IMG/VR virus record: IMGVR_UViG_3300044826_000112
DNA: 64,000 nucleotides
Direction: 5' to 3' (one strand)
Source: a virus
Shown: one piece after another, positions 3,186 through 19,309 of the stretch
Numbering within the stretch: the first letter of the stretch is position 1
Layout: each line of letters begins with the position of its first letter
The notes under the pieces: generated by a model
Database searches by the model: none
The model's input: the letters and a program-made list of their open reading frames with translations, nothing else
What the model was told of the DNA's origin: nothing
Program-made: the position numbers and the translations under genes

Positions 3186-3211
3186 AGTAGTTAACTACCT
3201 GGAGGCACCGA

Positions 3212-3782: not shown

Positions 3783-4579
3783 TCGACCGTCCAACTACTA
3801 TGATCCACCTGCTCAGCATGAGCCATCTGCATCGTGACCGCCTCTGGATTGCCGCTATGGCTCGCCAGACTCTCACGCAGGTAACCTCTAACCTCTGCCG
3901 TAGCATGGCGGAGCTGGGGTATGACATGTCCCTGCCTAACGGATACAACCAGCGTTTCTACAGCCTCAGTCATGCGTCTCGTCGTCAGTCGGTCAGTATG
4001 ACTTGGGCTCTGGATCCTACCCGCATGGGTCAGCATCAGAACTTGTCCTGGCGGCATTTCTTTGGCCTGATCCGCGGTATGGGTAACAGCTACGGTGCAA
4101 GCCTGTTGTGCACCCGTAACGGTAGTGCATCTTCGATCAGCTGGTCTGAAGACCCCAGCTCCAATCTGGCAGACTACTACATCACAGAAGGTCCGACAGT
4201 TCCTCCTCTGGATCTGCGTGCTGCGTACGACACTAACGTGTTCCCGAAGGTTATGGAGGTGCTGTGCATCTTCGGTTCGGTCTGTCTGGCCCAAGTTGCC
4301 ATGTATGGTAATGAAGCCCGGGCCATTCCGGACTTGTCCCCGCTGCTGGATCAGCTTATCCCACTGCTGTCAGATGAAGACAAGGTCATCTTGACCAACT
4401 TCTTGACGCACAACTCAGCGGTTCGCCTGCTGTGCCGCAGCCACATTGCCATCATGGAGGGGCGAAATGTACCTGGATCCACTACTGAAGCCGCTGTCGG
4501 AGATGCAGACGCACAAACTGCTGAAGCTACCTGTGCCGCTCAAGACGTACCAGGAACTCCTGCTGCTGATCAAGGCTGA
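3779..4579 (+). CDS. Hypothetical protein
   Basis: Start reassigned to the ATG overlapping the upstream stop (MIDRPTT). Confidence 0.65.
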   Translation: MIDRPTTMIHLLSMSHLHRDRLWIAAMARQTLTQVTSNLCRSMAELGYDMSLPNGYNQRFYSLSHASRRQSVSMTWALDPTRMGQHQNLSWRHFFGLIRGMGNSYGASLLCTRNGSASSISWSEDPSSNLADYYITEGPTVPPLDLRAAYDTNVFPKVMEVLCIFGSVCLAQVAMYGNEARAIPDLSPLLDQLIPLLSDEDKVILTNFLTHNSAVRLLCRSHIAIMEGRNVPGSTTEAAVGDADAQTAEATCAAQDVPGTPAADQG

Positions 4580-4959
4580 TATCAAGCGAGATTACCCGGG
4601 TCTGACCATCCTTCAAGTATTGGAGATGGACACACCTACGGAATCTTGATAGGGTTGTAACAGTCGATACCGGGAGGTGCCCATGGCGGACTTCGTATAT
4701 GTGGTCAAGGCTGTTACCAAGAACCTTGAAGAGGATGTAATCGGACTGACTCGTAGGGGATGCCCAACTGCGGCTCCTGGCTCTCACCACATCTGGGATG
4801 ATGAGGATGAAGCCTACGACTTTATGTTGAAAGCTGAAAGGTGCTTCAGTAAAGCCGTCTACCCGATCATGTACGTGCAACCTATCCGAGTATGACGAGG
4901 GCTCCTTCGGGAGCCCTACTTCTTGCTCTTCCGTCTCCTTTTAGCTATCATTCAGTTAT

Positions 4960-5035
4960 GCCCCAGTAGTTCAGTGGATAGAGCAACCGCCTTCTAAGCG
5001 GTGAGTCGTAGGTTCGAATCCTACCTGGGGTGCCA
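4960..5035 (+). tRNA. tRNA-Arg(TCT)
   Basis: GCCCCAG/CTGGGGT acceptor stem, ACCGC-CTTCTAA-GCGGT anticodon arm, GGTTCGAATCC, CCA. Confidence 0.93.
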
Positions 5036-5132
5036 CTCTCCTTTTCAATTTTCAGCATATAGCTCCGGTATAAGTACTACGTAGAGGAGGATATACCCTC
5101 CACTTTCTATTACTCACCACCAGGAGACTATC

Positions 5133-5411
5133 ATGTCTACACTTCCGGATACCTCGAACATGGTCATGATGACCGTGAATGATCTCATTGCCTTGCAAGA
5201 GAAAGCTGAAGACAAGCCGAAAGAATACTCCGTCGGAGATGCCATCGGCGGCATCCTCGGGGTTGCTCTGATCGGCGGAGGTCTGTACCTCGCCTGCTCT
5301 GGTCTGAACTCCAGCATGAGCAAAGACCGCCAGTACACCAAAGACATGGAACACGAAGTTAATGATCTTCGTACCCGTCTGGAAGCCCTCAAACAAGCCA
5401 CAGGTAAATAA
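5133..5411 (+). CDS. Small membrane protein, paralog 1
   Basis: One TM helix; C-terminal NDLRTRLEALKQATGK. Confidence 0.75.
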   Translation: MSTLPDTSNMVMMTVNDLIALQEKAEDKPKEYSVGDAIGGILGVALIGGGLYLACSGLNSSMSKDRQYTKDMEHEVNDLRTRLEALKQATGK

Positions 5412-5413
5412 TC

Positions 5414-5695
5414 ATGGAACTGAAACTCGAGAATGACTTCCTGGCGTTGGTAAATGCTGACCGCTATCAGGAACTGAAAGAACAAGCCGCTGCCAATGAG
5501 AACGCCTCTCAGAGCGTGCTGGAAACTACCCTGCAGGTTGCCACTGGTGCGATCATCGTGGGTGCCATCGGGTACATGGGTTATGCAGTGCATGACTCCA
5601 TCAAGCAATCCGAGAAGCGTTCTGAACTGCGTCGTGAAAAGAACGACCTGGCAGACCGTCTGGCAGAACTCAAGCGGAAAACCGAGAAGGAATAA
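5414..5695 (+). CDS. Small membrane protein, paralog 2
   Basis: TM helix; C-terminal NDLADRLAELKRKTEKE. Confidence 0.75.
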   Translation: MELKLENDFLALVNADRYQELKEQAAANENASQSVLETTLQVATGAIIVGAIGYMGYAVHDSIKQSEKRSELRREKNDLADRLAELKRKTEKE

Positions 5696-5698
5696 GTC

Positions 5699-5962
5699 AT
5701 GGAACTGGCTACTGGTAAGGTGATGATCTCCCAAGATCATCTGGAGATGATGCGGTTCGATGCGAGCCGCTCTGAGCGTAGTACTACTGCGGCGGTCGTA
5801 TCGACTGCCGTTATGGTTGGGGCAGCGGTGGCGGTGGGTTATGTTGTCTATTCAGATGTCAAAGACGGTCGAGATCACAGGGCCCGGATGGAAAAAATGC
5901 ACAACGAGCACGACGACCTCAAACGCCGAATCGCTGAGCTTACAAAGAAGAAGGACGCATAA
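5699..5962 (+). CDS. Small membrane protein, paralog 3
   Basis: TM helix; C-terminal DDLKRRIAELTKKKDA. Confidence 0.75.
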   Translation: MELATGKVMISQDHLEMMRFDASRSERSTTAAVVSTAVMVGAAVAVGYVVYSDVKDGRDHRARMEKMHNEHDDLKRRIAELTKKKDA

Positions 5963-5963
5963 G

Positions 5964-6254
5964 ATGGAAACTTTCGAGTACACAGGTCCCATGCGTATCA
6001 TGGACAAGAGTGATCTGGAATCCATGATCACCAAGATCGACAAGATCGAAGCCTCTATGGAGCCGGGTGCAGTTGAAGTGGCCCTCAAAGGTCTGTCTGC
6101 TGCAGTAATCGTTGGTGCCGGTCTGTACTTCATGTCGAAGTCTAGCTCGGACTCAACCCCGGTTCGGGCCGCTCGTGAAGCCACTATCGCTCGTGAGAAC
6201 GAGAACCTGGCTACCCGTCTGGCTGAACTCAAGCGTAAGACAGGTAAGGAGTAG
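5964..6254 (+). CDS. Small membrane protein, paralog 4
   Basis: Start reassigned to METFEY; TM helix; C-terminal ENLATRLAELKRKTGKE. Confidence 0.75.
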   Translation: METFEYTGPMRIMDKSDLESMITKIDKIEASMEPGAVEVALKGLSAAVIVGAGLYFMSKSSSDSTPVRAAREATIARENENLATRLAELKRKTGKE

Positions 6255-6257
6255 GCC

Positions 6258-6494
6258 ATGCTGGGACCAGCCCTGCTGTTCGGCCTGATAATGCAGGTCA
6301 AGAAAGATCGGGCTAACGCGGCTGCCGAAGAGATCCTCAGGAACATGGAGCCTATCTATGTTCCTGAAGGAGAAGCTCCGCTGAACGAGAAAGCCCTTGA
6401 GCGGATCCAGAATCTGCTCGATAAAGTTGACACTGTGGCCCAAGGTGTGGAGAATGCCTCGGTCACAGTGAAATCTATGAAGGAAGGGCAATAA
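6258..6494 (+). CDS. Small hypothetical protein
   Basis: AAGGAG RBS; last gene of the paralog operon. Confidence 0.65.
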   Translation: MLGPALLFGLIMQVKKDRANAAAEEILRNMEPIYVPEGEAPLNEKALERIQNLLDKVDTVAQGVENASVTVKSMKEGQ

Positions 6495-6539
6495 GCTCTT
6501 CTTTTAGTCAACTTTTAGCCATTAGGGGGTATAACCATT

Positions 6540-6677
6540 ATGGGAGAACCTAGCTTTATCAAAAAGGTTGTCCGGGATCCTATGTTCCGCCACAAGGTTG
6601 AGAAGCCTGGCAAGGGCAAAGGTTCTTATCAACGTAAGCCAAAAGGAAGTAAGAATGACCCTGTACGCGAAGATTAA
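6540..6677 (+). CDS. arfA: Alternative ribosome-rescue factor A (short form)
   Basis: MGEPSFIKKVVRDPMFRHKVEKPGKGKGSYQRKPKGSKNDPVRED matches the ArfA core DPLFRQRVEKNKKGKGSYxRK; absent from the ORF track. Confidence 0.85.
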   Translation: MGEPSFIKKVVRDPMFRHKVEKPGKGKGSYQRKPKGSKNDPVRED

Positions 6678-7083
6678 GGCTGATTGCCTTGTGCTCCGTA
6701 AGGAACAACAGAAGGAAGAAGCAGGCGTTCTGCTTGTTGTTTTAGGTGATGCCGAGACTCGGGCTAAGCAGCTCAGTCCTGCTATGCTGGAAGCTGACGG
6801 CTCTCTTCCGGATCACGAAGTTCTGAAGATCATCAAGAAGAACATCGATGATGCCATCACCACCCTCAACGCCAAGAAGGACAACCAGAAAGCCCAGCTG
6901 ACTCGTGCCCTTCTCGAGCCCTATATGCCAACCATGCTGACTGCCGAAGAGCTCCAGGACATCCTGACCTCTGCGGTAGAAGTAGAGAGCCTCGGCTCTG
7001 CAATGAAATTCCTCAAAGAGAACTATGCCGGTAAGTATGACGGCAAGATCGCTTCTGAAGTTGCCCGTAACATGTTCGCCTAA
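6655..7083 (+). CDS. YqeY/GatB-domain protein
   Basis: MTLYAKIKAD..., EVLKIIKK, LEPYMPTMLTAEEL, GSAMKFLKENYAGKYDGK are typical of YqeY. Confidence 0.8.
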   Translation: MTLYAKIKADCLVLRKEQQKEEAGVLLVVLGDAETRAKQLSPAMLEADGSLPDHEVLKIIKKNIDDAITTLNAKKDNQKAQLTRALLEPYMPTMLTAEELQDILTSAVEVESLGSAMKFLKENYAGKYDGKIASEVARNMFA

Positions 7084-7092
7084 GGAGGCAAA

Positions 7093-8415
7093 ATGAACAT
7101 TAATCTCAAGAAACTGCTCGGTATTGGTGCAGCTGGTCTGCTCGGTGCTGTCATCCTCGTCTACGGTCTGTTCGGCTGGATCTACGTAGCTGGCGGTGAG
7201 TATGCCCGAATTCAGAAGCCTGATGGCTCCTATGAATGGCACGTCACCAACGGCTTCAAGGTGAAGACTCCGTTCCTGGATCGCTACGAGATCTTCAACC
7301 AGTACAACACCATCGACATGACCGATGGCGAGAACCCTACTGCAACGATCGATCTGCCGTTGCACAAGGTTAACTTCAACGATACCTACACCATGGATAT
7401 CGGCGTAACTGCCCGCTACTCCTTGATGCCGGATCCGGAGAAGCTGGAAATCATGTACCAGGCGAACAAGACCAACAAGGCCTTGGTTGCCAGCACCATG
7501 GTGCCGAACCTGCGTAACCTGTTGAGCCAGACTGCCAACCAGTTCCGCGGTGAGGACTACCTCCAGGGTGGTCAGAACGAGTTCCAAGCTCGTCTTTACT
7601 TCCAAGCTGAGAATGGCCTGTACGTTACCGAGCGTGTTAAGCGTGAAGTGGACGTTGAATCTGGCTACTCTGCCGACGTGAACGCTTCTGCTAACGCCGA
7701 AGGTACCAAGCAGACCAAGGCTATGGCCTGGGTTGTGGACATCGTTCGCGATGATCAAGGTAAGCCGATCACTCAAGAGAGCCAGCTGGCCAAGTTCGGC
7801 GTCATGCTGGATCTGATTGAGATCAACAAGTTCATTCCGGATCCCGATCTGGAAGCCTTCATGACTCAAAAGCGTGCCAAGATCCGTGAACGTGCCGGTA
7901 TCGTTGAAGACCAGCGTAACGCTCGTGAAGCTCAAGTAACTGCCCGCCTGATGGGTGAGAAAGAGCGTATCGAAGAGCGTAACAAGGCTCTGAAAGCTAA
8001 AGACCGTGCCGTTATTACCGAATCCCAGCAGGTAGCAGTTGAACAAGAACGTGCCAAGCTGGAAATCGTTAAGAAGGACAAGGAACTGAAGATCGCTCAG
8101 GCGAACGAAGGTATCCAAAAGGCCAACTACGAGGCTGCCAAGTATGAAGCTCTGGCTATCAAAGAGACCGGCTTGGCCGAAGCTCAGGTAGAAGACGCCA
8201 AGTATAAGGCTAAAGATCGTCAGCTCTACATGAAAGAGCTGGAGCTGGAAAACAACAAGCACCTGTACAATGCTCTGCCGGCCCTCAAGGTCCAGATGCC
8301 TCAGTACGTGCAGATGGGTGGCCAGAGTGGCATGAACAGCAACCTGGAAGCTATGTCCTCTCTCAAGCTGATGGAAGGCTTGGGTATGAGTACTCCAGCG
8401 ACTCCTGCCAAGTAA
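7093..8415 (+). CDS. SPFH/band-7 domain membrane protein
   Basis: N-terminal TM, GFKVKTPF segment, long Ala/Glu/Lys coiled-coil C-terminus. Confidence 0.75.
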   Translation: MNINLKKLLGIGAAGLLGAVILVYGLFGWIYVAGGEYARIQKPDGSYEWHVTNGFKVKTPFLDRYEIFNQYNTIDMTDGENPTATIDLPLHKVNFNDTYTMDIGVTARYSLMPDPEKLEIMYQANKTNKALVASTMVPNLRNLLSQTANQFRGEDYLQGGQNEFQARLYFQAENGLYVTERVKREVDVESGYSADVNASANAEGTKQTKAMAWVVDIVRDDQGKPITQESQLAKFGVMLDLIEINKFIPDPDLEAFMTQKRAKIRERAGIVEDQRNAREAQVTARLMGEKERIEERNKALKAKDRAVITESQQVAVEQERAKLEIVKKDKELKIAQANEGIQKANYEAAKYEALAIKETGLAEAQVEDAKYKAKDRQLYMKELELENNKHLYNALPALKVQMPQYVQMGGQSGMNSNLEAMSSLKLMEGLGMSTPATPAK

Positions 8416-8468
8416 GGCAGACTAAAGGCCCTCTCCGGAGGGCCTTTTCTTTTACCTAAGGAGTAGGT

Positions 8469-8654
8469 ATGGAGATTTTCTTAGAGGTAATCGCTCTGAT
8501 GGGACTCTTGTCTGTTGCGATAATCGCCTACATAGTCGGCTTAGTGGTCGCAATGGTGACGGAGGAGCTGCTATTGGGAGGAGCTGCGTTCGTCGGAGTA
8601 GTTGTTGTTGCGTATTACTTCTGGCAATACCTCTCAACAACGGTGGCATCTTAA
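8469..8654 (+). CDS. Small 2-TM membrane protein
   Basis: AAGGAG RBS; highly hydrophobic 61 aa. Confidence 0.65.
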   Translation: MEIFLEVIALMGLLSVAIIAYIVGLVVAMVTEELLLGGAAFVGVVVVAYYFWQYLSTTVAS

Positions 8655-8669
8655 CGGTATAAGTAAGTT

Positions 8670-8752
8670 AGAGATGTGATAGCTGTAGATCCTGTACGAC
8701 AGATTTGGGCCACTTGGCCGCCCGGCTTACGCAAATTCCCCGGGTTTTTTTA
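8670..8752 (+). ncRNA. Putative small ncRNA
   Basis: Own promoter motif (8656), three hairpins, GC stem followed by a U-run, no credible ORF. Confidence 0.35.
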
Positions 8753-8784
8753 CTATCGCTGAGCGATTCGGGTATAAGTACTAT

Positions 8785-9380
8785 GTGCCAGAGGAAGCGT
8801 ATAACTCTGACACTCTCGACCGCAAGAATCAGACTCCGTCTACTCTGCAGATGCCCGCCAAGCGTCAATGCAGAATCCCATCGCTAGCGGTCGAGAGTTT
8901 CAAAAGGAATGAAAAACGTGAAGAACTCGCAAATAAGGAGTCGGAATCGTGCAGGTCGCAAATCTAGGAACTATCACCGGTGAAACTGCAGTATTAACCG
9001 GGTGTCTGAACCTAGAAGGCGACTTCGCCATACAGGCTGAGGATGGTGCATTCCTCAACTTCTTTCCAGTGCACTACCCGGACGGGTATGTACGTAAGAA
9101 CTGGTCCGTAGAATTTCGCACCGACGGCTGGTATTTACATACATCATGTTCGGTTTTGAATGGCAAGGTTGAGTGTCCATTTAAAGCACAGCTCTGTATG
9201 GAGTTGGTTCGAGGCTCATTGGAATGGACAAAGGGTCTAAGGTTAATCTCAAGGATTTGCCGAGGGGATATCAGTAAGATCACAACTACTATGAGGATGC
9301 TTCAAAATGCAGGCTTAATCACGGGTACTAATCGGGAAGAATAACAACACCACTCATGGGGGCTCGCACAGGCCCCCATA
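8785..9380 (+). ncRNA. Putative large structured ncRNA
   Basis: Promoter motif at 8771; dense nested helices including 12-bp 8812-8823/8887-8898; final GC hairpin 9356-9379. Confidence 0.5.
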
Positions 9381-9399
9381 TCAATCCAAAGGAGACAGT

Positions 9400-10014
9400 A
9401 TGTCTAAAGCACTAGACCCGATTTCTTTAGCTATCGCGAAAGCCTCGTGGTGGCATGGCGAACAGAAACGCAAGTACACCAACGATGACTACATCGTTCA
9501 CCCTATTGAAGTCATGAACTTCCTAGCCTTGTTTACTCAGGACGAGGCAGTCATGGTGGCAGCCATCCTGCACGACGTAGTAGAAGATACCCCCGCCACC
9601 GTTCAGGAAGTCGAAGCTATCTTCGGTGAGGACGTAGCCAAACTGGTATTCGGCATGTCGGAACCTGAAGTACCGGCAGGTACCAACCGCGGGGAGCGGA
9701 AGGAAATCTACCGCCTACATCTGGAGAAGCAATGCTGGCGGACCAAGATGATCAAGTTTGGGGATATCTACTCGAACACCAAAGATATCGCTATGCACGA
9801 TCCTGACTTTGCTGTAGTCTACTTGGCCGAAATCCAGCGTACTATCAACTCGATCGATGATAACCGTATCCCGCTCCTGCTCCGCCAAATGGTCAAAGAG
9901 CAGGTCAAGCTGGCTAAGCTGTACGTTGATCAGTTCCAGGCCAACAAGAAGTTGGTCAAGAAGCTGAGCAATATCAGAACTATTACCGAAACCATCAAAG
10001 GAGAACTGCTATGA
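9400..10014 (+). CDS. RelA/SpoT-type HD hydrolase (small alarmone hydrolase/Mesh1-like)
   Basis: HGEQKRK...YIVHP, AAILHDVVEDT, FGEDVAKLV, IKFGD..SN. Confidence 0.85.
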   Translation: MSKALDPISLAIAKASWWHGEQKRKYTNDDYIVHPIEVMNFLALFTQDEAVMVAAILHDVVEDTPATVQEVEAIFGEDVAKLVFGMSEPEVPAGTNRGERKEIYRLHLEKQCWRTKMIKFGDIYSNTKDIAMHDPDFAVVYLAEIQRTINSIDDNRIPLLLRQMVKEQVKLAKLYVDQFQANKKLVKKLSNIRTITETIKGELL

Positions 10015-11600
10015 AGAACTATCTGAACAACGCTCTTGGTCGTGCCCACCTGGCTAACGTAGAAGGCGTGGACGTCAAACTTCCCGGCCAAGTACGTACT
10101 CACGGCGGTGGTTTCGCCTTCGAGATCACTCCTGAAGTGCTGCTCGAACGCTTCCTGATCCTGGGTACCACTACCTCTCAGTACGTCGGTCCAGACAAGC
10201 TGGCAGTAGACGCTCTCGGCCGTCTGATGCCGCACATCGCTCTGAACCCGGTGACCGTGGCTCGTACCGCGGTAGAAGCCGTGGAGCAGAACCGTGTGCT
10301 GTCAAAGGTACCTGCTCTTTTCGTTTACGCTACAGCTCACACTGTGGCCACCTCTGGTGAACACCGTCGTGCCATCGCTCTGATGCTGCCTCGTATCGTC
10401 AACACCTTCTCCGACCTTCAGACCCTACTGGGTTTCGTAGCGAACACTCATAACAAGGGTATCGCTACCAGCTTGGTCAAGGCATGCCGTCGCTACCTGT
10501 ACAACATGCCGATCGACAAGATGATCAACCAGGCTCTGAAGTACCGTAAGCGTGCCGGCTGGGCAGTTCTGGACATGCTGCGTGTCATCCACCCTGTGCC
10601 GAAGGATAACGACCAGAACTTCCTGTACGGTTACATCGTGGAGAACGATGAAGCCCGTGCAGAAGCTTGCCGTCGCTTCCCGATGGTAGCAGCCTTCGAA
10701 GCTGCCAAGGTGCTGGATGATCACAACCTGATCGTCAAGCTGATCAAGGACAACGGTCTGACTTGGGAGCACGTACCTACCGAGCACCTGAACAACAAGT
10801 GGGTTTGGAAGGCTCTGCTGCCCAACCTGCCGATGACCGCTCTGATCCGTAACCTGCCGAAGATCTCTTCTGTAGGTGCGATCGATGACACCTTGTCTCT
10901 GGACATCGTGCTGGACAAGCTGAAGCCGGAGATCGTGGCAAAGGCTAAGGTTCACCCCTTCCGTCTTTACCTGGCATGGTACGGCTATGGCCAAGGCGGC
11001 AACCGCAACATGTCCTGGACTCCTAATCAGCGTATCCTCGCTGCTCTGGAGACCTGCCTGTATGCGGCATTCGCCAACGTAGAGGTGAAGGGTAAGGTGT
11101 GCATCGGCTCTGACATCTCAGGCTCTATGTGGTGGGATGACTCTCGCATCAACCGTACTGGTCCGTATGCAGGCGATGCAGCCGGCATGCTGGCAGCCAC
11201 CTTCAAGGCAGCTAATCCGGAAACTGACGTGTTCTACTTCTCCGGCCAGCTGGTCAAGGCGGCGTTCGACCCGATGTCTTTGAAGTCGGTCAACATCGAC
11301 ATGCACAAGCATCACATGGGTAGCACCAACCCAGGTTTGCTGATCTCCAAGGCCATCAAGGATAAGGTCAGATACGATGCCTTCATCGTCCTGACTGATA
11401 ATGACGTGAACAGTGGTCGTCACTCCCAGCAACTGCTGGAGACCTACCGTGCCACCGTCAATCCGAAGGCCAAGCTGATCGTCGTCGGTATGACTGCGAA
11501 CAACTTCTCCATCTCCAGCCCGGATGACGTCCTGTCTATGGACATCGCCGGTATGGACGCAGGGATCATGACTGCGATCGAGAAGTTCATCGCAATGTAA
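10011..11600 (+). CDS. rsr: Ro60/Rsr TROVE-vWA RNA-binding protein
   Basis: GGFAF..LERFLILG, KYRKRAGW..DMLR..HP, LTWEHVP, LPMTALIRNL, DISGSM (MIDAS), FIVLTDND, AGMD. Confidence 0.92.
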   Translation: MKNYLNNALGRAHLANVEGVDVKLPGQVRTHGGGFAFEITPEVLLERFLILGTTTSQYVGPDKLAVDALGRLMPHIALNPVTVARTAVEAVEQNRVLSKVPALFVYATAHTVATSGEHRRAIALMLPRIVNTFSDLQTLLGFVANTHNKGIATSLVKACRRYLYNMPIDKMINQALKYRKRAGWAVLDMLRVIHPVPKDNDQNFLYGYIVENDEARAEACRRFPMVAAFEAAKVLDDHNLIVKLIKDNGLTWEHVPTEHLNNKWVWKALLPNLPMTALIRNLPKISSVGAIDDTLSLDIVLDKLKPEIVAKAKVHPFRLYLAWYGYGQGGNRNMSWTPNQRILAALETCLYAAFANVEVKGKVCIGSDISGSMWWDDSRINRTGPYAGDAAGMLAATFKAANPETDVFYFSGQLVKAAFDPMSLKSVNIDMHKHHMGSTNPGLLISKAIKDKVRYDAFIVLTDNDVNSGRHSQQLLETYRATVNPKAKLIVVGMTANNFSISSPDDVLSMDIAGMDAGIMTAIEKFIAM

Positions 11601-11634
11601 TTCAACATTTGGGGTATTACGGGTATAAATATTA

Positions 11635-12149
11635 TGTGGTGAGGTATCTTACTCTTAAGTAGAGAGGAGGTAACCTCCTCACTCCGTAGTACCCCTCCGG
11701 GGCGGATCCTGGCGGATCCAACTCGGCGTTATGCTCACCAAGCGACGTACAGTATGTTCGACAAGTGTTGAACTGCAAGAGGTAACCTCTTGACTCGTTC
11801 TTCCAGGCGCCGCTCCGGGCTTCGCCCTACGCTCTGCCTGGAGTATCTATAGATTGGATCTAGCATCCGCGAGTGTACGTTAGTACCAACCACCAGAGGT
11901 AACTTTGGGAATACCAAGCGAGGAGGCTACCTCCTCATTCTGTTAAACCCGCAGTCGGCGTACAGTCCCAATCACTGTACCGCCTTCGCATGCTCTGGTT
12001 GATGCTGTGGCATCACGAGTAGTCTGTAGTATATGGACTTAGTTCCGTGGGGAGGTAACCTCCCTACTCCATTACTTCGCGTATTTGCACAGAAGTGCAA
12101 AGTACGCATGTACAGACCATAACCAAAAGAGAGTCCAACTCTCTTTTTT
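11635..12149 (+). ncRNA. Putative Ro60-associated structured ncRNA with repeated hairpins
   Basis: Promoter motif at 11622, no plausible + strand ORF, repeated GAGG-TAA-CCTC hairpins, terminator 12125-12149. Confidence 0.65.
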
Positions 12150-12164
12150 ACTTGGAGATTAGCC

Positions 12165-12716
12165 ATGGACCTATTCCTCGGGGTTGACCCGGGTTGGAAG
12201 AACCTCGGATGGTGCGTCTCGACAATCGATGGGGAACCTCAATTGTTCGGGACAATGAACCCTTCCGAGTATGAGTTGGGCACGGTGCCTAAGCTCATCT
12301 TAGATAGTCTCGGCAGCAAGGCGAAAAACCTGAAAGGTATTGCCATGGAGCGGTACGTCTTTTATGATGGCCGCTACAACGCTGACAGTGAGCACATCCT
12401 CATGGTTACGGGACAGTTCCAGTACATGGCTGCCTCGTTGGGGATGGAGATCAAGATGTTCCGAGCTATTGACTGGAAGACTACGCTAGCCAAGGTCTTG
12501 TTCAAGTCCAATGGCTGGCAGAATCCTTCTGATTCGTTCGACAAAGTGTTCTCAATTGCAGCTGCTAAAGAGGCAACTGGAATGGAATTCAAAGTCGACC
12601 ACGTGGCGGACGCAGGGTGCCTCGCATACCTCGCAGGACGCTACCAGAAGGCGTTGACGGCTGCTGCCCTAGGCAGTGGTCTAGGTAAGACTAAATGCTC
12701 TCAGAAACGCTCCTAG
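12165..12716 (+). CDS. RuvC-like Holliday junction resolvase
   Basis: LGVDPGWKNLGW, IAME, WK, DHVADA acidic catalytic residues. Confidence 0.8.
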   Translation: MDLFLGVDPGWKNLGWCVSTIDGEPQLFGTMNPSEYELGTVPKLILDSLGSKAKNLKGIAMERYVFYDGRYNADSEHILMVTGQFQYMAASLGMEIKMFRAIDWKTTLAKVLFKSNGWQNPSDSFDKVFSIAAAKEATGMEFKVDHVADAGCLAYLAGRYQKALTAAALGSGLGKTKCSQKRS

Positions 12717-12745
12717 AGCGTTATACGACACACAAGGAGAATACC

Positions 12746-13171
12746 ATGCATCTTAACGAAGTTTTGAAAGAGTTCGCCCCGGCAATGGCAGCTATCGAGA
12801 AGACTACTGTAGTGGAGACCTTCTTCGCTCAGCTGGTATCTCTCGAGGGAGCCATCTCTGAAGTGTACAGTGTCCAAGGCCGCCTGGAAGAGTACTCCCG
12901 TGACCAAGTGGAGTTCTCCATCCGTTGTAGCTGTGGCTCCGATGAGCTGCTGGAAACTGAAGAGCTCAAGCAGTACTACCGCTTGAAGAAGGCCAGTTTC
13001 AGTGCCATGGGCTTCATGTACAACCAGCGTGTCAACGACGATCTGGTCGATCTGGCCTGGGAAGCATTCCAAATTGCTACCCCTCAGGCTGATCGTGCCA
13101 TGTTCGACCGTGTACGTGCAGGCGACGTCGAGGCCTTGAAGGCTCTGCAAGAGCTACATAAGGCCCAGTAA
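12746..13171 (+). CDS. Hypothetical protein
   Basis: Start reassigned after the AAGGAG RBS (MHLNEVL). Confidence 0.7.
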   Translation: MHLNEVLKEFAPAMAAIEKTTVVETFFAQLVSLEGAISEVYSVQGRLEEYSRDQVEFSIRCSCGSDELLETEELKQYYRLKKASFSAMGFMYNQRVNDDLVDLAWEAFQIATPQADRAMFDRVRAGDVEALKALQELHKAQ

Positions 13172-13450
13172 TCGACACATTTCGGCCCCATGTGTCTGGT
13201 CATTTTGAGTCCAATCGACACATAAAATGACGATTTCATGGGGTTTTTAGCGTGTATGTGTCGGTTGTGTCGCCTGTTCCACCCCAAAATACATACCTAC
13301 TTCTACGAAAAGGCACCAATGTGTCTTATCCTATATATCTCTCTATCTCTCGTAAGGAAAATATAAATAAATAAATAGAGAGGGGTGGTTGGGATATTTC
13401 AGATATGGGATGTTTTTAGAGGGTGGAACACCGACACATCGCACACATGA
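13171..13450. repeat. ~280-bp dispersed element, copy 1 (GACACAT motifs, inverted arms, AT-rich core)
   Basis: Shares identical 33-, 22- and 19-bp blocks with 54221-54488. Confidence 0.9.
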
Positions 13451-13542
13451 ATCTGAAGACTGCTTTGCTTACGAGGATGTTCCAGGCACACCATGTGCAC
13501 ACAGACTCATACTTGACCGCCACATGCCCAAGGAGGCATTCA

Positions 13543-14163
13543 ATGTCGTATATCGAAACCTACAGTGGAGACAAGTTCTTCGCCATCGCCGAAGACCTGG
13601 AAGGTATCAACATCGATGATATCGCCAAGGCCTTGTCTCACACTAACCGCTACAACGGTCATACTGAGCTGCCCTACTCGGTAGCTGAGCATAGCATCCA
13701 CGTAGCCAGTCTGCTGCCGCCAGAGCTGCAGATGATGGGTCTGCTGCATGACGCTTCTGAAGCGTACATTGCAGACATCCCGTCTCCGTTCAAGCCGCTT
13801 ATCCGTGGCTACGAGGAACTGGAAGATCACATCATGAAACGGGTATGGCGGAAGTTCGGCATTCCGCTTGAACTCGTAGAAGAGCGTTACGCGGAAGTGA
13901 AACATGCTGACCTACTGATGCTGTGTGCCGAGGCACGGAACATCAAGAAGTCGAAGGGTGAGCTGTTTAGCGACGTGTTCGAACCGTACTTCGAAAAGGC
14001 AGAACAGGATGAACGACTGAAGGATATGCCGTATCATATCTCTCCCGCAATAGCCTGTGGTCTGTTCAAGAAGATCTTCCGCATGATCAGCGAGGGGAAA
14101 TTCCTGGAAGGCCCGTTCCTCCGTCACGAGGACATGGTTAAATTTCTGATGGTAAGAGGATAA
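13543..14163 (+). CDS. HD-domain deoxynucleotide phosphohydrolase (YfbR-like)
   Basis: IDDIAKALS..NRYNGH...YSVAEHS, LLHDASEAYIADIPSPFK; AGGAGG RBS. Confidence 0.85.
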   Translation: MSYIETYSGDKFFAIAEDLEGINIDDIAKALSHTNRYNGHTELPYSVAEHSIHVASLLPPELQMMGLLHDASEAYIADIPSPFKPLIRGYEELEDHIMKRVWRKFGIPLELVEERYAEVKHADLLMLCAEARNIKKSKGELFSDVFEPYFEKAEQDERLKDMPYHISPAIACGLFKKIFRMISEGKFLEGPFLRHEDMVKFLMVRG

Positions 14164-14165
14164 AG

Positions 14166-16454
14166 ATGACTCAACGTGTAACCAAACGTGATGGCTCTCT
14201 GGAGCCGGTTGATCTGGCAAAGATCAGCAAAGTACTGACCTGGGCTGCTGAAGGCCTGGACGATGTATCCGTATCCCAGGTAGAGATGTCCTCTCACCTG
14301 CAGCTGGTAGATGGCATGTCCACCAAGGATATCCATGCAGTGCTGGTTAAGTCAGCTGCCAACCTGATCTCCGTGGACACCCCGGACTATCAGTACATGG
14401 CTGCTCGTCTGAACCTGTACAGCCTCCGCAAGGAAGCCTACGGCGGCTACAAGCCTCCTCACCTGGCCGACCACATCCTCAAGATGGTAGAGGCTGGCAA
14501 GTATGACCGGACCATCCTGGTCGACTACAACCCGCAAGAGCTCGAAGAGCTGGCCCAGTACATCGATCATGATCGTGACTGGCTGTACGCCTACGCTGCT
14601 ACCAAGCAGCTGGAAGGCAAGTACCTCGTGAAGGATCGTCACACCGGTCAAATCCACGAGAGCCCGCAGATGATGAACATGCTGATCAGTATGTGCCTGT
14701 TCCAGCGTTACGTGTCTATCGACCGTGCTCGCCGAATGGACTACGTGAAGCGTTTCTATGATGCTCTGTCTACCTTCAAGATCTCTCTGCCGACCCCGAT
14801 CATGAGCGGCGTCCGTACTCCGACCCGTCAGTTCAGCTCCTGCGTAGTAATCACTACCGGTGACAGTCTGGATTCCATCAACGAGACCTCTGCTTCCATC
14901 GTGAAGTATGTATCTCAGCGTGCTGGTATCGGCCTGTCGGTTGCATCTATCCGTGCCCTCGGTAGCGCAATTCGTGGGGGTGAAGCCAAACACACCGGTC
15001 TGATTCCGTTCATCAAGAAGTTCCAGTCCGACGTCAAGTGCTGCTCCCAAGGCGGAGTACGTGGCGGTGCAGCTACTGTGTTCTTCCCCTGGTGGCACTA
15101 CGAGTCTCCGGAGCTGATGGTTCTGAAGAACAACCGTGGTACCGAAGATAACCGTGCTCGTCACCTCGACTACGGTATCGAAGTCAACGGCTTCATGTAT
15201 CGCCGCTTGCAGGCCCGTAAGGACATCTCCCTGTTCTCTCCGTCTGACGTACCGAACCTGCTGGAAGCGTTCTACGCTGACCAAGGTGAGTTCGAGCGTC
15301 TGTACGAGATCTACGAGTCTGACCTGAGCATCCCGCGTCGCACCATGTCTGCAGTCGACTTCTGTACCTCTATCGCCTCTGAGCGTGCGAGTACTGGCCG
15401 TCTGTATGTGGCACACATGGACCATATGAACACCAACAGCCCGTTCGATCCGAATGTGGCACCTGTTCGTCAATCCAACCTGTGCCTGGAAATCGCTCTG
15501 CCGACCAAGCCTGTCGGTATGGAAGAAGAGACTGGTGAGAAAGGTGAGATCGCCCTGTGTACTCTGGGTGCGTTCAACCTGGGTGCCATTACCGAGGAAG
15601 AACTGCCGGAGCTGTCTGACCTGCTGGTCCGCGGTCTGGATACCATCCTGGATTATCAGGATTATCCCCGCAAAGAAGCCAAGTACGCAACCATGCTGCG
15701 TCGCCCTCTGGGTATTGGCGTCATCAACTACGCCTATGACCTGGCCCGCCGCGGCCTGCGTTACACAGACCCCAAAGCTCTGGAGTACACGCACCGCCTG
15801 TTCGAAGCCATCCAGTACAACCTGCTGTCCGCATCGGTTGACCTGGCAGTGGAGTTCGGTGCATGCCCGGCGTTCCACGAGACCACCTATGCTCAAGGCG
15901 TCCTGCCGATCGACCGCTACAAGAAGTCTGTCGATAAGCTGACTGCTCCGGTCTACTACTACGACTGGGAGAGCCTGCGTGAGCGTATCGTGAAGCACGG
16001 TCTGCGTAACTCTACTCTGACCGCTCTGATGCCTTCCGAGACCTCCAGCCAGATCTCCAACGCCACCAACGGTATCGAGCCGCCACGTGGTCTGGTGTCT
16101 GTGAAGCAGTCCAAGGACGGCGTCATGCGTCAGGTGGTACCGGACATCAAGCGTCTGCGTCGTGCCTACGAGACTCTGTGGGAGCAGCCAAGCTGTGTGC
16201 CGTACCTGCAGCTGGTAGGTGTAATGCAGAAGTTCGTCGACCAGGCTATCTCTGCCAACACCAACTACGACCCGGTTCGTTTCCCGGAAGGTAAGGTGTC
16301 TGCAGCGACTGTTCTGCGTGACATGATGACTGCTTACAGCTATGGTGTGAAGACTCTGTACTATCACAACACTCGTGATGGTGCCGACGATAACATGGCT
16401 GAAGTTCTGCTGGCGGAGTCCGATGACTGTGCCGGTGGTGGTTGCAAGATCTAA
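14166..16454 (+). CDS. nrdA: Class Ia ribonucleotide reductase alpha subunit
   Basis: ATP cone VTKRDG, PTPIM, SSC, SNLCLEI, LYY, C-terminal CxxxxC. Confidence 0.97.
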   Translation: MTQRVTKRDGSLEPVDLAKISKVLTWAAEGLDDVSVSQVEMSSHLQLVDGMSTKDIHAVLVKSAANLISVDTPDYQYMAARLNLYSLRKEAYGGYKPPHLADHILKMVEAGKYDRTILVDYNPQELEELAQYIDHDRDWLYAYAATKQLEGKYLVKDRHTGQIHESPQMMNMLISMCLFQRYVSIDRARRMDYVKRFYDALSTFKISLPTPIMSGVRTPTRQFSSCVVITTGDSLDSINETSASIVKYVSQRAGIGLSVASIRALGSAIRGGEAKHTGLIPFIKKFQSDVKCCSQGGVRGGAATVFFPWWHYESPELMVLKNNRGTEDNRARHLDYGIEVNGFMYRRLQARKDISLFSPSDVPNLLEAFYADQGEFERLYEIYESDLSIPRRTMSAVDFCTSIASERASTGRLYVAHMDHMNTNSPFDPNVAPVRQSNLCLEIALPTKPVGMEEETGEKGEIALCTLGAFNLGAITEEELPELSDLLVRGLDTILDYQDYPRKEAKYATMLRRPLGIGVINYAYDLARRGLRYTDPKALEYTHRLFEAIQYNLLSASVDLAVEFGACPAFHETTYAQGVLPIDRYKKSVDKLTAPVYYYDWESLRERIVKHGLRNSTLTALMPSETSSQISNATNGIEPPRGLVSVKQSKDGVMRQVVPDIKRLRRAYETLWEQPSCVPYLQLVGVMQKFVDQAISANTNYDPVRFPEGKVSAATVLRDMMTAYSYGVKTLYYHNTRDGADDNMAEVLLAESDDCAGGGCKI

Positions 16455-16495
16455 CTAACAGGGCCCTACGGGGCCCTTTCATTTGGAGAAAGGAT

Positions 16496-17149
16496 ATGAA
16501 GAAGACTATTCTGGTTGCCATGATGGCTATCTCTCTGACCGGTTGCGTAGACTCTCTGCGTGATCTGGATAATAACACCCGTATGACCAACGCTGAGCAG
16601 GGCTATATCATTGCTACTGGTAAGGCCGCGGATGCCCGGGATGCCATCACTAACGGCTATGAGTCAGGTACTGGTGCTGGCGAAGACTTCCGCCGTATCT
16701 GGTGGGATCTGGCCTCCGCCGCTAACTCTAAGCGTAAGAACTTGCGGAACGAGGATGAGGTAAACATCAAGCCTTTCTGCGACATCCTAGAGGAAGTTCG
16801 CATGGCTGACTACCGTGTCACCACGCAGTTCCCTAAGGCTCGCACTCTGCAGAGTGTCTACCAGGAGATCACTGGTAAGACTCTGGATGAGTCATGCGGC
16901 GTAGTACCTGCGGCCATCCCTGTGGCACGTACTGTTCAGACTGACCGTACCGGCAACGGTGAACCTGAGTTGGCCCCTGAGACCTATGGTCTGATGATCG
17001 ACGCTGCTAAGTCCTGCGAGCGTGCACGTATCTCCCTGATGTCCTATCCGTCAGGCTACGTGTTCACCAAGAAGGACTACAACAAGATCATGAACCTGGT
17101 GAACGACTGCAAGCGATTCGAACTGGAGAGTTCAATCAACAGTAAGTGA
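16496..17149 (+). CDS. Putative lipoprotein
   Basis: MKKTILVAMMAISLTG-C lipobox. Confidence 0.75.
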   Translation: MKKTILVAMMAISLTGCVDSLRDLDNNTRMTNAEQGYIIATGKAADARDAITNGYESGTGAGEDFRRIWWDLASAANSKRKNLRNEDEVNIKPFCDILEEVRMADYRVTTQFPKARTLQSVYQEITGKTLDESCGVVPAAIPVARTVQTDRTGNGEPELAPETYGLMIDAAKSCERARISLMSYPSGYVFTKKDYNKIMNLVNDCKRFELESSINSK

Positions 17150-17214
17150 TCATGGTATAAGTACTGTGTAGGAGTCTGACCTACGAAATCAAATAACTAT
17201 ACAGGAATACTGTC

Positions 17215-17364
17215 ATGCAAACTCAAGTTGTACAAATCGCTGCTAGTAAGCTGGTCCACATGTCAATCGAAGAGATCGAAGAGATCAATGCCATGGAAGG
17301 TGTCGAAAGCATGAGCCAGCTGGTTCGCAAAGTAGAGGCTGAGCAGTATAAGCTCGATGCGTAA
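17215..17364 (+). CDS. Small hypothetical protein (MQTQVVQIAASK...)
   Basis: 49-aa ORF between promoter motif 17154 and a hairpin; absent from the ORF track. Confidence 0.55.
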   Translation: MQTQVVQIAASKLVHMSIEEIEEINAMEGVESMSQLVRKVEAEQYKLDA

Positions 17365-17452
17365 TCCAGTAGACCGGGGTCAACATTGATCCCGGTCAAA
17401 TCTTCCTTTTCTTTTTTCCCTATACTTACTCCCGATTTTCCGGAGAATCCAT

Positions 17453-19309
17453 ATGTCCATGATCAGACTAACCCCCGACCAACTCAAGCAGATGGTCCAG
17501 AACTCTATTGACTATCGTCAAGCCCAGAACGCCGCCACCGGCTCCAAACTGGATGCCAACGCCAACGTATCAGTCAAGAACGTAGCGACCGAAGAAGTGG
17601 AGCTCGTCAAAGACTTCCTCCTGCAGCTCAACCGTACTCGCGTAAGTGCTGCTATCCAGGAATTGTACGGCACTCGCGACGCCCAACAGTACCTGGAAGA
17701 CCTTGGTGATCACTTCATCTATACCCACGATGAAACCTCTATCAAACCCTACTGCACCTCGATCTCCATGTATCCGTTCGTACTGAATGGTCTCAAGGGT
17801 CTGGGTGGAGATACCACTGCTCCTAAGCATCTGCGTACCTTCGTAGGTGGCTTCATCAACCTCCTGCATGCCATTGCCAGCCAGTTCGCTGGTGCCGTGG
17901 CCACTGTAGAATTCCTTACCTACTTCGATCACTTTGCTCGTATGGAGTATGGCCAGGGCTACTCGAATGCCTTCGACCCCAAGAGCCTCAACTATGACTC
18001 TATTCAGGCTCAAGAGATCCGCAAGGACATCTACGAGCACTTTGCCCACGTGATCTACACCATCAACCAGCCGGCTGCGAACCGCGGCTATCAGGCCATC
18101 TTCTGGAACATCACAGTATTCGACCAAGGCTACTTCGAGAGCATGTTCGAAGGCTTTGTGTTCCCCGATCTGGACCGTCCGAACTGGGCATCTACCTCTG
18201 TGCTCCAGCGTGAATTCCTGCGTTGGTTCAACAAAGAGCGTGAGCGTGCAGTCCTGACCTTCCCGGTCGTAACTGCTGCCCTGTTGAATGATGGTACTGA
18301 CTTCCGTGATCTGGATACTGCAAAGTTCCTGGCCAAGGAGATGTCTGAAGGTAACTCCTTCTTCATCTACACCTCCAAGTCCGCGGATAGCTTGGCCTCT
18401 TGCTGCCGTCTGCGTAACGAGGTGACTGACAACGTGTTCTCCCATAGCCTGGGCGCTGGCGGTGTCATGACTGGTTCTCTGAACGTCATCACCATCAACA
18501 TGAACCGTTTGGCCCAAGCAGGTAGCCGTGAGCTCAACATTCAAGGGTTCCACGCCGCTCTGAAACGTCAGGTCCAGCAGGTACACAAGTACCAGCACGG
18601 CCACCTGAAGATCTACCAAGAATACTTGGCCCAAGGGATGCTGACCGCGTACGACGCAGGCTTCATCTCTATGGAGAAGCAGTTCCTGACCGTAGGCCTG
18701 AATGGTCTGGTAGAGGCTGCAGAGTTCTTCAACATCCGCCCTGACAACAACCCTCTGTATCGCAAGTTCGTACAAGACACTCTCAAGGTCATCTATGATG
18801 AAAACCGTGAGTTCTCCGCACGTACTGGCCTGAAGGTGAACACTGAATTCGTGCCGGCTGAGAGCCTGGGCGTCAAGAACGCCATGTGGGACCAGAAAGA
18901 CGGTTTGAAGGTCATGCGGGATTGCTACAACAGCTACTTCTATCGCGTGGAAGACGAGAACCTCTCTCCTCTGGATAAGCTGAATCTGTTCGATCAGGAT
19001 ATGACCAAGTACCTGGACGGCGGTTCTGCCCTCCACCTCAACCTGGAAGATCTCCTGGACGAGGAACGCTGGATGGGTATGATGCGTTGTGCCATCGTGG
19101 TCGGTGTGCAGTACTTCTGCTTTAACGTGAAGTCCACTATCTGTAACGACTGTGGCTTCATCGACAAGCGTACTCGCCAGTGCTGCGAGAAGTGCGGCTC
19201 CCATGACGTCGATGGTGCCACTCGAGTGATTGGCTACTTGAAACGGGTGAGCAACTTCTCGAAAGCTCGACAGGAAGAGCATTCCAGAAGAGTCTATTCC
19301 CGGGTATAA
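17453..19309 (+). CDS. nrdD: Class III (anaerobic) ribonucleotide reductase
   Basis: IYTHDE..PYC, TFPV, SCCRL, VPAESL, CxxC...CxxC, glycyl-radical RVIGYL. Confidence 0.95.
   Translation: MSMIRLTPDQLKQMVQNSIDYRQAQNAATGSKLDANANVSVKNVATEEVELVKDFLLQLNRTRVSAAIQELYGTRDAQQYLEDLGDHFIYTHDETSIKPYCTSISMYPFVLNGLKGLGGDTTAPKHLRTFVGGFINLLHAIASQFAGAVATVEFLTYFDHFARMEYGQGYSNAFDPKSLNYDSIQAQEIRKDIYEHFAHVIYTINQPAANRGYQAIFWNITVFDQGYFESMFEGFVFPDLDRPNWASTSVLQREFLRWFNKERERAVLTFPVVTAALLNDGTDFRDLDTAKFLAKEMSEGNSFFIYTSKSADSLASCCRLRNEVTDNVFSHSLGAGGVMTGSLNVITINMNRLAQAGSRELNIQGFHAALKRQVQQVHKYQHGHLKIYQEYLAQGMLTAYDAGFISMEKQFLTVGLNGLVEAAEFFNIRPDNNPLYRKFVQDTLKVIYDENREFSARTGLKVNTEFVPAESLGVKNAMWDQKDGLKVMRDCYNSYFYRVEDENLSPLDKLNLFDQDMTKYLDGGSALHLNLEDLLDEERWMGMMRCAIVVGVQYFCFNVKSTICNDCGFIDKRTRQCCEKCGSHDVDGATRVIGYLKRVSNFSKARQEEHSRRVYSRV

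What the first reader, a model, noticed from the sequence alone, without database searches (positions are those of the whole stretch)
11622..12149. ~510-nt putative RNA with an array of GAGG-UAA-CCUC hairpins directly downstream of Ro60
Seen in sequence: a promoter motif at 11622 and a terminator at 12125-12149 enclose a region with no credible ORF. It has four covarying hairpins: GAGGAGG-TAA-CCTCCTC (11664), CAAGAGG-TAA-CCTCTTG (11776), GAGGAGG-CTA-CCTCCTC (11920) and GGGGAGG-TAA-CCTCCCT (12049). Each is followed by A(C/T)TC, with spacings of 112, 144 and 129 nt, and weaker variants occur at about 11639 and 11893. Other helices lie between them (11744-51/11874-81; 11801-08/11836-43; 11957-11984 with a bulged C; 12079-12107). 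Outer-stem changes are compensatory, which points to selection on structure. Established: bacterial Ro60 genes usually neighbour ~100-nt Y RNAs. Inference: this is a tandem array processed into several Y-like RNAs, or one multivalent scaffold/decoy RNA. I see no tRNA-like T-loop typical of YrlA, so it may be a new class.
Basis: partly seen in the sequence, partly recalled or inferred. Interest (0 to 1): 0.85.

Follow-up and report, generated by a model that had tools for sequence, protein, structure and literature searches.

The report
Large structured RNA gene beside phage Ro60
Right after its Ro60 RNA-binding protein gene, a 175-kb phage carries a non-coding RNA gene of about 510 bases with four copies of one small hairpin. 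It is probably a new, much larger kind of Ro60 partner RNA, but binding has not been tested.

Summary
Window 11601-12164 has no conserved ORF. It starts with a phage-wide promoter motif (11622) and ends in an intrinsic terminator (12125-12149). It folds far better than shuffles (z about -8) and better than 12 flanking coding windows.

The four GAGG-YWA-CCUC hairpins are the only such sites in the 175-kb genome. Their outer pairs covary.

Only one homologue could be fetched (L049, 97% identical). Its changes cluster in two hairpins and keep pairing, through a paired deletion and a G-C to A-U swap.

Contigs from four metatranscriptome studies cover the stretch. This is weak evidence of expression, because the runs were chosen for holding it.

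No Rfam family matches. YrlA, the usual bacterial and phage Ro60 partner, is absent from the whole genome, although its model rings in 7 of 17 other phage Ro60 loci. There is no tRNA-like domain and no GNCGAA Ro60 motif.

Best reading: a new, large, modular non-coding RNA that is most likely the Ro60 partner. The RNA nature is well supported. The link to Ro60 rests on position only. Processing into Y-sized units is not shown.

The parts
9400..10014 (+). HD-domain phosphohydrolase gene; its end overlaps the Ro60 start (context)
   Evidence: Pfam HD_4 8.4e-15; PHROG metal-dependent phosphohydrolase
10011..11600 (+). Ro60 (TROVE + vWA) gene, full length
   Evidence: Pfam vWA_Ro60 4.5e-31 and TROVE 2.6e-22. 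Matches human and Xenopus Ro60 and D. radiodurans Rsr over residues 27-526, E 1e-44 to 1e-48.
11615..11640 (+). Promoter-like element of the phage's own type (GGTATAA at 11622-11628); start of the RNA inferred near 11634-11640
   Evidence: 18 copies on the + strand and 1 on the - strand in the window, against 4.1 expected, with a shared downstream context. 100% identical in L049.
11634..12149 (+). The non-coding RNA, about 510 nt (5' end inferred, 3' end at the terminator)
   Evidence: Fold z -7.6 to -8.5, against -4.8 to +0.2 in 12 flanking windows. No conserved ORF. RNA-library contigs at 11648-11951, 11933-12118, 11668-11890 and 11767-12097.
11638..11653 (+). Degenerate copy of the hairpin (GUAU loop, two G-U pairs)
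   Evidence: (family D4)
11664..11684 (+). Hairpin H1 (7 bp, UAA loop) plus ACUC tail
11776..11796 (+). Hairpin H2 (7 bp, UAA loop) plus ACUC tail; pair probability 0.97
11801..11843 (+). Long hairpin with internal loops. It is the variable spot among strains, and pairing is kept.
   Evidence: 9 of the 17 differences between L049 and the window lie here. They include the loss of both partners of the pair A11805-U11839 and U-G/U-A swaps. Further indels appear in RNA contigs. Pair probability 0.91.
11893..11908 (+). Variant hairpin with a GUAA tetraloop
   Evidence: family D3; pair probability 0.55-0.88
11920..11940 (+). Hairpin H3 (same stem as H1; loop CUA, which is UUA in L049) plus AUUC tail
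   Evidence: It can also pair with H1 over 16-17 bp.
11957..11984 (+). Hairpin with a bulged C at 11980
   Evidence: pair probability 0.87-0.99
12049..12069 (+). Hairpin H4 (UAA loop, one G-U pair) plus ACUC tail
   Evidence: pair probability 0.99. In L049 one G-C pair becomes A-U and the tail changes.
12079..12107 (+). Hairpin of 12 pairs
   Evidence: pair probability 0.80
12125..12149 (+). Intrinsic terminator (stem-loop plus U run)
   Evidence: I10; pair probability 0.93. A near copy lies elsewhere in the genome.
12165..12716 (+). Next gene, Holliday-junction-resolvase-like (context; probably unrelated)
   Evidence: PHROG 1770, E 2.1e-05

Best explanation
Window 11634-12149 (+) is a gene for a non-coding, highly structured RNA of about 510 nt in a 175-kb phage of freshwater and wastewater.

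It is transcribed from a phage-type promoter at 11622, and probably also by read-through from the HD-Ro60 operon. It ends at the intrinsic terminator at 12125-12149.

The RNA is built of stable local hairpins. Four of them (H1-H4) share a conserved GAGG/CCUC core and a three-base loop, and in this window an A(C/U)UC tail.

Inferred: the RNA is the partner of the Ro60 encoded immediately upstream, replacing the tRNA-like YrlA that this phage lacks. The four repeated hairpins would be the reiterated docking sites for Ro60 itself or for the factor that Ro60 is tethered to. One RNA would then gather several proteins, either as one scaffold or after cutting into units.

Shown: it is non-coding, structured and unique, its pairing is conserved, and it is present in RNA libraries. 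Inferred only: the link to Ro60, the valency and any processing.
For: - Position and strand match known Ro60 partners. YrlA RNAs lie within 4 kb of Ro60 on the same strand (PMC4201824). In Salmonella two Y RNAs sit directly after rsr in the rsr-yrlBA-rtcBA operon (PMC7790460).
- The Ro60 is full length.
- No YrlA exists anywhere in the genome: the best hit is 19.5 bits, on a tRNA. There is none within 10 kb of Ro60. The same model rings near Ro60 in 7 of 17 other phage loci.
- Structure: z is -7.6 to -8.5, against -4.8 or weaker in flanking windows and in 18 of 19 other ORF-poor gaps beside phage Ro60 genes.
- The hairpin motif is unique to this spot and covaries.
- In L049 the changes keep pairing.
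- The + strand is favoured: 17 local hairpins with 18 G-U pairs, against 10 hairpins with 8 G-U pairs on the - strand. The promoter motif is almost + strand only.
- Contigs from RNA libraries of four studies cover the stretch. In the smallest run (X17) the RNA's span is covered and the Ro60 gene is not.
- The phage also carries RtcB and an RNA ligase.
Against: - No test of Ro60 binding was possible.
- The Ro60 recognition motif of bacterial Y RNAs (GNCGAAN0-1G) is absent from the + strand. There are only two near matches (read against PMC4201824).
- There is no tRNA-like domain.
- The size is four times that of any characterised Y RNA.
- Only one homologue, 97% identical, could be fetched, so covariation has no statistical weight.
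- The RNA runs were selected for holding this stretch. Contigs show neither strand nor ends, and one contig bridges from Ro60 into the RNA.
- The two strands fold about equally well.
- None of 83 other phage Ro60 loci has a similar sequence or hairpin array.
Confidence: 0.5

Rival explanations
1. A stand-alone structured regulatory or scaffold RNA that has nothing to do with Ro60 and merely sits beside it. One example is an RNA that displays masked Shine-Dalgarno-like (GAGG) and anti-SD-like (CCUC, ACUCC) elements and acts on ribosomes or on the phage's own GGAGUC-type ribosome-binding sites. Another is an RNA that multimerises through its palindromic hairpins.
For: - It has its own promoter motif and terminator.
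- The known Ro60 motif is absent.
- The hairpin arms are SD and anti-SD-like. The tails of H1, H2 and H4 are complementary to the GGAGU(C) that follows many copies of the promoter motif.
- H1 and H3 are reverse complements of each other: 16 of 17 bases here and 17 of 17 in L049.
Against: - The complementarities are only 5-6 nt long.
- The H4 tail is lost in L049.
- The hairpin motif occurs nowhere else in the genome, so it is not a shared operator.
- The position directly after Ro60, in a phage without YrlA, would be a coincidence.
Confidence: 0.25
2. A long structured 3' untranslated region of the HD-Ro60 operon. Its hairpins would only protect the mRNA from 3'-5' exonucleases or guide RNase III processing, with no function in trans.
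For: - One RNA contig runs from inside Ro60 (11256) to 11969.
- A 12-bp helix pairs 11611-11622, upstream of the promoter motif, with 11684-11695. Its pair probability is about 1.0 if read-through occurs.
- The only terminator after Ro60 is at 12125-12149.
Against: - About 510 nt with at least ten hairpins and a four-fold conserved motif is far more than mRNA stabilisers need.
- A phage promoter motif sits at the start of the region.
- Outside two hairpins, the region is 100% identical between two strains whose Ro60 3' part is 93% identical.
- In two RNA runs the RNA's span is covered and the Ro60 gene is not, although this is weakened by selection bias.
Confidence: 0.12
3. A DNA-level element: palindromic binding sites for a dimeric DNA-binding protein, or an origin or packaging signal.
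For: The four sites are perfect or near-perfect inverted repeats in an intergenic region.
Against: - The outer positions change on both arms while the consensus is not kept. That is what base pairing predicts, not protein half-sites.
- G-U pairs exist on the + strand only, in H4, in both variant hairpins and in the variable hairpin.
- The rest of the region is also strongly structured.
- The stretch is covered in RNA libraries.
Confidence: 0.04
4. It encodes small proteins, from antisense ORFs of 48-64 aa or a 29-aa + strand ORF.
For: ORFs of 48, 60 and 64 aa exist on the - strand.
Against: Single-base indels in L049 break or reshape the 60-aa, the 64-aa and the 29-aa ORFs. The 48-aa ORF starts with TTG, lies antisense, and is unchanged only because the DNA there is identical.
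Confidence: 0.02

Closest known systems
YrlA / bacterial and phage Y RNAs (Rfam RF02553; Chen et al. 2014, PMC4201824)
   Same: A non-coding RNA encoded next to Ro60 on the same strand. It is modular, made of stems and hairpins. The phage context also holds tRNAs and RNA-repair genes.
   Different: There is no covariance-model match, no tRNA-like T and D arms, and no GNCGAA motif. It is about 510 nt against 80-130 nt. It carries a four-fold repeated hairpin not described for Y RNAs.
Salmonella rsr-yrlBA-rtcBA operon (PMC7790460)
   Same: More than one Y RNA unit lies in tandem directly downstream of the Ro60 gene, and the units can be co-transcribed with it.
   Different: In Salmonella there are two separate ~100-nt RNAs, one of them tRNA-like, followed by rtcBA. 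Here there is one 510-nt unit with its own promoter motif and terminator, and RtcB lies about 130 kb away.
Thermus phage phiLo Yrl1/Yrl2 (PMC12135203)
   Same: Phage-encoded Ro60 with non-canonical Y-like RNAs next to the gene. That paper reports higher-order Ro60-RNA complexes with stoichiometries above 1:1.
   Different: The phiLo RNAs lie upstream, are short, and were picked by their CGAA motif, which is absent here. The phiLo Ro60 is only distantly related (E 1e-10).
Large ornate phage- and prophage-associated RNAs (ROOL, GOLLD and others, in Rfam)
   Same: It is several hundred nt long, very structured, phage-borne and of unknown function. Its palindromic hairpins could mediate RNA-RNA contacts.
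   Different: No Rfam model matches at E<=10, and there is no sequence similarity. Known examples are not linked to Ro60.

Membership tests
YrlA (Rfam RF02553) | Match to the covariance model (gathering score 69 bits; diverged phage members score 30-52 bits) | tested here: not met
   No hit at E<=10 in 11500-12250, none in window 1-20000 at E<=1, and a genome-wide best of 19.5 bits on a tRNA. Positive controls ring at 29-52 bits in 7 of 17 other phage Ro60 loci.
YrlA (Rfam RF02553) | tRNA-like domain with T and D arms | tested here: not met
   ARAGORN finds nothing in 11400-12400. The only UUCGA stretch (11757-11761) sits in a 7-bp hairpin stem, without a closing G-C pair around a 7-nt loop.
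YrlA / bacterial Y RNA | GNCGAAN0-1G motif near the 5' end (putative Ro60 contact, PMC4201824) | tested here: not met
   There is no CGAA on the + strand of 11634-12149. The nearest are the G(A/G)CGUA stretches at 11744 and 11957, which form the 5' strands of helices (family D5).
YrlA / bacterial Y RNA | Encoded within 4 kb of Ro60 on the same strand | tested here: met
   It starts about 35 nt after the Ro60 stop, on the + strand.
Y RNA (general) | 80-130 nt, with a long stem formed by the 5' and 3' ends | tested here: inconclusive
   The whole RNA is about 510 nt. Four candidate units of 85-138 nt can be drawn, but their closing stems have pair probability 0.0-0.5. The exception is the first, which needs sequence upstream of the promoter motif.
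Y RNA (general) | Bound by Ro60 in vivo | not testable with these tools
   No protein-RNA prediction or binding data were available.
Known large structured RNAs (ROOL, GOLLD, OLE, HEARO, tmRNA, group I/II introns and others) | Match to the family's Rfam model | tested here: not met
   All 4227 Rfam models were run with permissive filters. The only hit is a chance 14-bit IMPDH match on the - strand.
Independent sRNA gene | Own promoter and intrinsic terminator with no ORF between | tested here: met
   Promoter motif family; terminator; no conserved ORF. The 5' end itself has not been mapped.

The most novel reading that the evidence does not exclude
A new class of Ro60-associated RNA: one polyvalent transcript of about 510 nt that lacks tRNA mimicry. 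It would carry four reiterated hairpin docking sites, plus a possible long-range or intermolecular H1-H3 duplex. It would assemble several Ro60 or effector molecules into one particle during phage infection, in place of the single-site ~100-nt Y RNAs known so far.
Probability: 0.3. Interest if true: 0.8.

Novelty: new variant of a known kind. Interest (0 to 1): 0.62.

Why it matters
All characterised Ro60 partners, from animals to bacteria, are RNAs of roughly 100 nt. In bacteria and phages at least one of them is tRNA-like. What phage Ro60 proteins do is unknown.

A phage that has Ro60, RtcB and an RNA ligase but no YrlA, and instead carries a 510-nt modular RNA with a four-fold repeated hairpin beside Ro60, would widen the definition of Y RNAs. 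It would also give a defined substrate for testing multivalent Ro60 assemblies and their role in phage-host RNA conflicts.

Even if the RNA is unrelated to Ro60, it is a clean candidate for a new large structured phage RNA. The element recurs in wastewater and freshwater samples from 13 studies.

Tried and rejected
- Homologue hunting mostly failed. blastn against phage records found no match. Ro60-based scans of IMG/VR, JGI metagenomes and GTDB genomes with the close-family alignment found no relatives. The exact H1 string is not in IMG/VR.
- Two-hairpin DNA patterns gave 7 IMG/VR and 55 genome hits, all unrelated to the region. They also gave 52 metagenome hits, of which only L049 is real. 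The hits with a fixed 122-nt span are conserved protein-coding genes and match no Rfam family.
The contigs of the Ro60 relatives at 93, 89, 75 and 60% identity (P0001-P0004) could therefore not be fetched.
- nhmmer and a motif scan of 83 other phage Ro60 loci found no similar RNA.
- The generic sigma-70 scan called no promoter at 11622. It listed H2 and H3 as terminator-like, which I regard as noise.
- Fold energy does not tell the strands apart.
- In the RNA runs, some parts of the flanks had no cover. This was not used as evidence of absence.
- The idea that the hairpins copy the 16S rRNA 3' end (shared AGGUAACC) was considered and dropped, because the match is not colinear.
- CRISPR-repeat mimicry, ToxI-like repeats and REP elements were considered and rejected on spacing, on stem variability, and because the motif is not a multi-copy family in any genome that was hit.

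Full report
**Context.** The window is bases 17314-81313 of a 175,261-base IMG/VR virus record, judged 98% complete. ORF 10011-11600 (+) is a full-length Ro60. It carries Pfam vWA_Ro60 (4.5e-31) and TROVE (2.6e-22). It aligns over residues 27-526 to human and Xenopus Ro60 and to D. radiodurans Rsr (E 1e-44 to 1e-48). An HD phosphohydrolase gene overlaps its start. A Holliday-junction-resolvase-like gene starts at 12165. The ribonucleotide reductase is 61% identical to those of Proteus, Cronobacter and Salmonella phages, so the host is probably a proteobacterium. The genome also encodes RtcB and an RNA ligase, but far from Ro60.

**Observation.**
- Four hairpins with a GAGG/CCUC core, a three-base loop and an A(C/U)UC tail lie at 11664, 11776, 11920 and 12049, with spacings of 112, 144 and 129 nt.
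- The core occurs only at these four places in the whole genome. A covariance model built from the hairpins finds only these four (33.8-38.3 bits) and their mirror images at E<=10.
- Across six copies (four here, two variant copies in L049), all 42 cells pair. The three outer pairs change on both sides. The covariation score exceeds all 500 shuffles and all slid controls.
- Degenerate copies sit at 11638-11653 and 11893-11908.
- The arrangement (degenerate copy, H1, H2, degenerate copy, H3, H4) and a local alignment of the two halves suggest an old duplication of a unit of about 250 nt. The alignment scores 36 against 21 +/- 3.3 in shuffles.

**It is a transcription unit.**
- GGTATAA at 11622 belongs to a motif family with 18 copies on the + strand and one on the - strand, against 4.1 expected on both strands. 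The copies usually share a downstream context and sit ahead of genes.
- The generic sigma-70 scan misses this site, so it is a phage-type promoter by inference.
- The terminator at 12125-12149 has pair probability 0.93 and a U run. A 92% identical copy lies elsewhere in the genome.

**It is not coding.** There is no + strand ORF of 40 aa or more. The antisense ORFs of 60 and 64 aa and a 29-aa + strand ORF are broken or reshaped by single-base indels in the relative L049.

**It is strongly structured.**
- The fold z-score is -7.6, or -8.5 in my own shuffles. Twelve flanking windows of the same length range from +0.2 to -4.8.
- Nineteen other ORF-poor, tRNA-free gaps beside phage Ro60 genes range from -0.2 to -4.6, with one outlier at -7.3.

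**Strand.** Energy alone does not tell the strands apart. The + strand has 17 local hairpins with 18 G-U pairs, against 10 hairpins with 8 G-U pairs on the - strand. The promoter motif, the flanking genes and the U run also point to +.

**Relatives.**
- Ro60 relatives at 93, 89, 75 and 60% identity exist in Logan assemblies.
- One metagenome contig, L049, carries the region. It is 97% identical there, 93% in the Ro60 3' part and 98.7% in the next gene.
- Sixteen of its 17 differences fall into two spots; the 17th is in the H3 loop (see below).
- In hairpin 11801-11843, both partners of one A-U pair are deleted, two U-G/U-A pairs swap, and an opposed C/A in an internal loop becomes A/U. Two inner pairs are lost.
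- In H4, a G-C pair becomes A-U and a G is added. The 3' tail is rewritten so that it pairs with the same upstream segment in another register.
- The H3 loop changes from CUA to UUA.
- RNA contigs show further indels in the 11801-11846 hairpin and the same extra G.
- This pattern fits selection on pairing, but two sequences give no statistical test.

**Expression.**
- Twenty runs from 13 studies of freshwater and wastewater hold the stretch, six of them on record as RNA.
- Contigs of four RNA studies were laid on 10400-13400. X17 gives 11648-11951 and 11933-12118, with no cover of Ro60. X19 gives 11668-11890. X18 gives 11767-12097 plus flanking pieces. X15 covers everything, including a contig from 11256 to 11969.
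- The runs were chosen because they hold this stretch, and contigs show neither strand nor ends. This is therefore only a weak hint of an abundant RNA. It also leaves read-through from Ro60 open.

**Known families.**
- No Rfam model matches and ARAGORN finds nothing.
- YrlA (RF02553) is not found in the whole genome. It rings at 29-52 bits near Ro60 in Mycobacterium, Gordonia and Streptomyces phages and in 4 of 14 IMG/VR loci.
- The GNCGAAN0-1G motif proposed as the Ro60 contact (PMC4201824) is absent from the + strand. Two repeated G(A/G)CGUACAGU stretches form 5' strands of helices, one of them with a bulged C. They are the nearest thing to it.
- None of 83 other phage Ro60 loci has a similar sequence or hairpin array.

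**Anatomy models.**
- Local hairpins H2 and H4, the variable hairpin, 11957-84 and 12079-12107 are robust, with pair probabilities of 0.8-0.99.
- H1 and H3 share the same stem, and their central bases are complementary. They can therefore form a 16-bp duplex (17 bp in L049) that extends to a roughly 30-bp imperfect helix. This duplex is favoured (probability 0.99) if the RNA starts at 11634.
- If transcription reads through from Ro60, a 12-bp helix (11611-22 with 11684-95) wins instead.
- Four Y-sized units can be drawn from the two-sequence consensus, but their closing stems are weak. Processing into units is therefore open.

**Mechanism, committed.** I take this to be the Ro60 partner RNA of this phage (confidence 0.5), with the four hairpins as reiterated docking sites. 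The argument has three parts. Ro60 genes almost always have their RNA next door on the same strand (PMC4201824), and in Salmonella directly downstream in tandem (PMC7790460). This phage lacks any YrlA. The only exceptional RNA structure near Ro60 is this one. A phage Ro60 forming higher-order complexes with non-canonical Y-like RNAs has a precedent (PMC12135203). The rivals are an unrelated regulatory or scaffold RNA (0.25), a structured 3' UTR (0.12), a DNA element (0.04) and small ORFs (0.02).

**Verdict.** This is a real and unusual feature. The RNA nature is well supported, while the function and the Ro60 link are inferred. I class it as a new variant of the Ro60-associated RNA kind. If Ro60 does not bind it, it is a candidate for a new RNA class.

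Noticed in passing
window 322, 1937, 5067, 6528, 8656, 8771, 11622, 17154, 23471, 26201, 45402, 61281 and others: A phage-wide promoter-like motif, GGTATAA, usually followed by GTAC..TGGAG. There are 18 copies on the + strand and 1 on the - strand, against 4.1 expected. It resembles a -10-only (T4-late-like) promoter with a very short leader to the ribosome-binding site.
   Followed up: partly
L192:2475-2910 (also L193), upstream of another phage Ro60: An ORF-free 436-nt gap with fold z of -6.4 to -7.3. A domain of about 300 nt is closed by a 33-bp helix (2581-2615 with 2850-2883). No Rfam or YrlA hit. It is a second unclassified large structured RNA beside a phage Ro60.
   Followed up: partly
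window 11664-11680 and 11920-11936; L049:1044-1060: H3 of L049 is the exact reverse complement of H1, and here 16 of 17 bases match. The central loop base is A in H1 and U in H3, but A in both H2 and H4. This may mean a long-range or intermolecular duplex, or a conformational switch.
   Followed up: partly
window 11801-11846: This one hairpin collects most strain-to-strain variation, with indels in L049 and in three RNA runs. The surrounding ~200 nt on each side are identical between strains.
   Followed up: partly
G000:C1:158564-159595 and G000:C1:15643-16125 (outside the window): The phage encodes RtcB (281.6 bits) and an RNA ligase (59.5 bits). It therefore has an RNA-repair kit, but not clustered with Ro60.
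   Followed up: no
window 10550-11065: This stretch inside the Ro60 coding sequence folds with z -4.8, the strongest of the 12 control windows.
   Followed up: no
L131:2639-2767 and L132:399-528: These are 'tRNA' matches of about 130 nt just upstream of Ro60 in IMG/VR phages. The L132 match overlaps a YrlA-like hit, so they are probably long tRNA-like Y RNAs.
   Followed up: no
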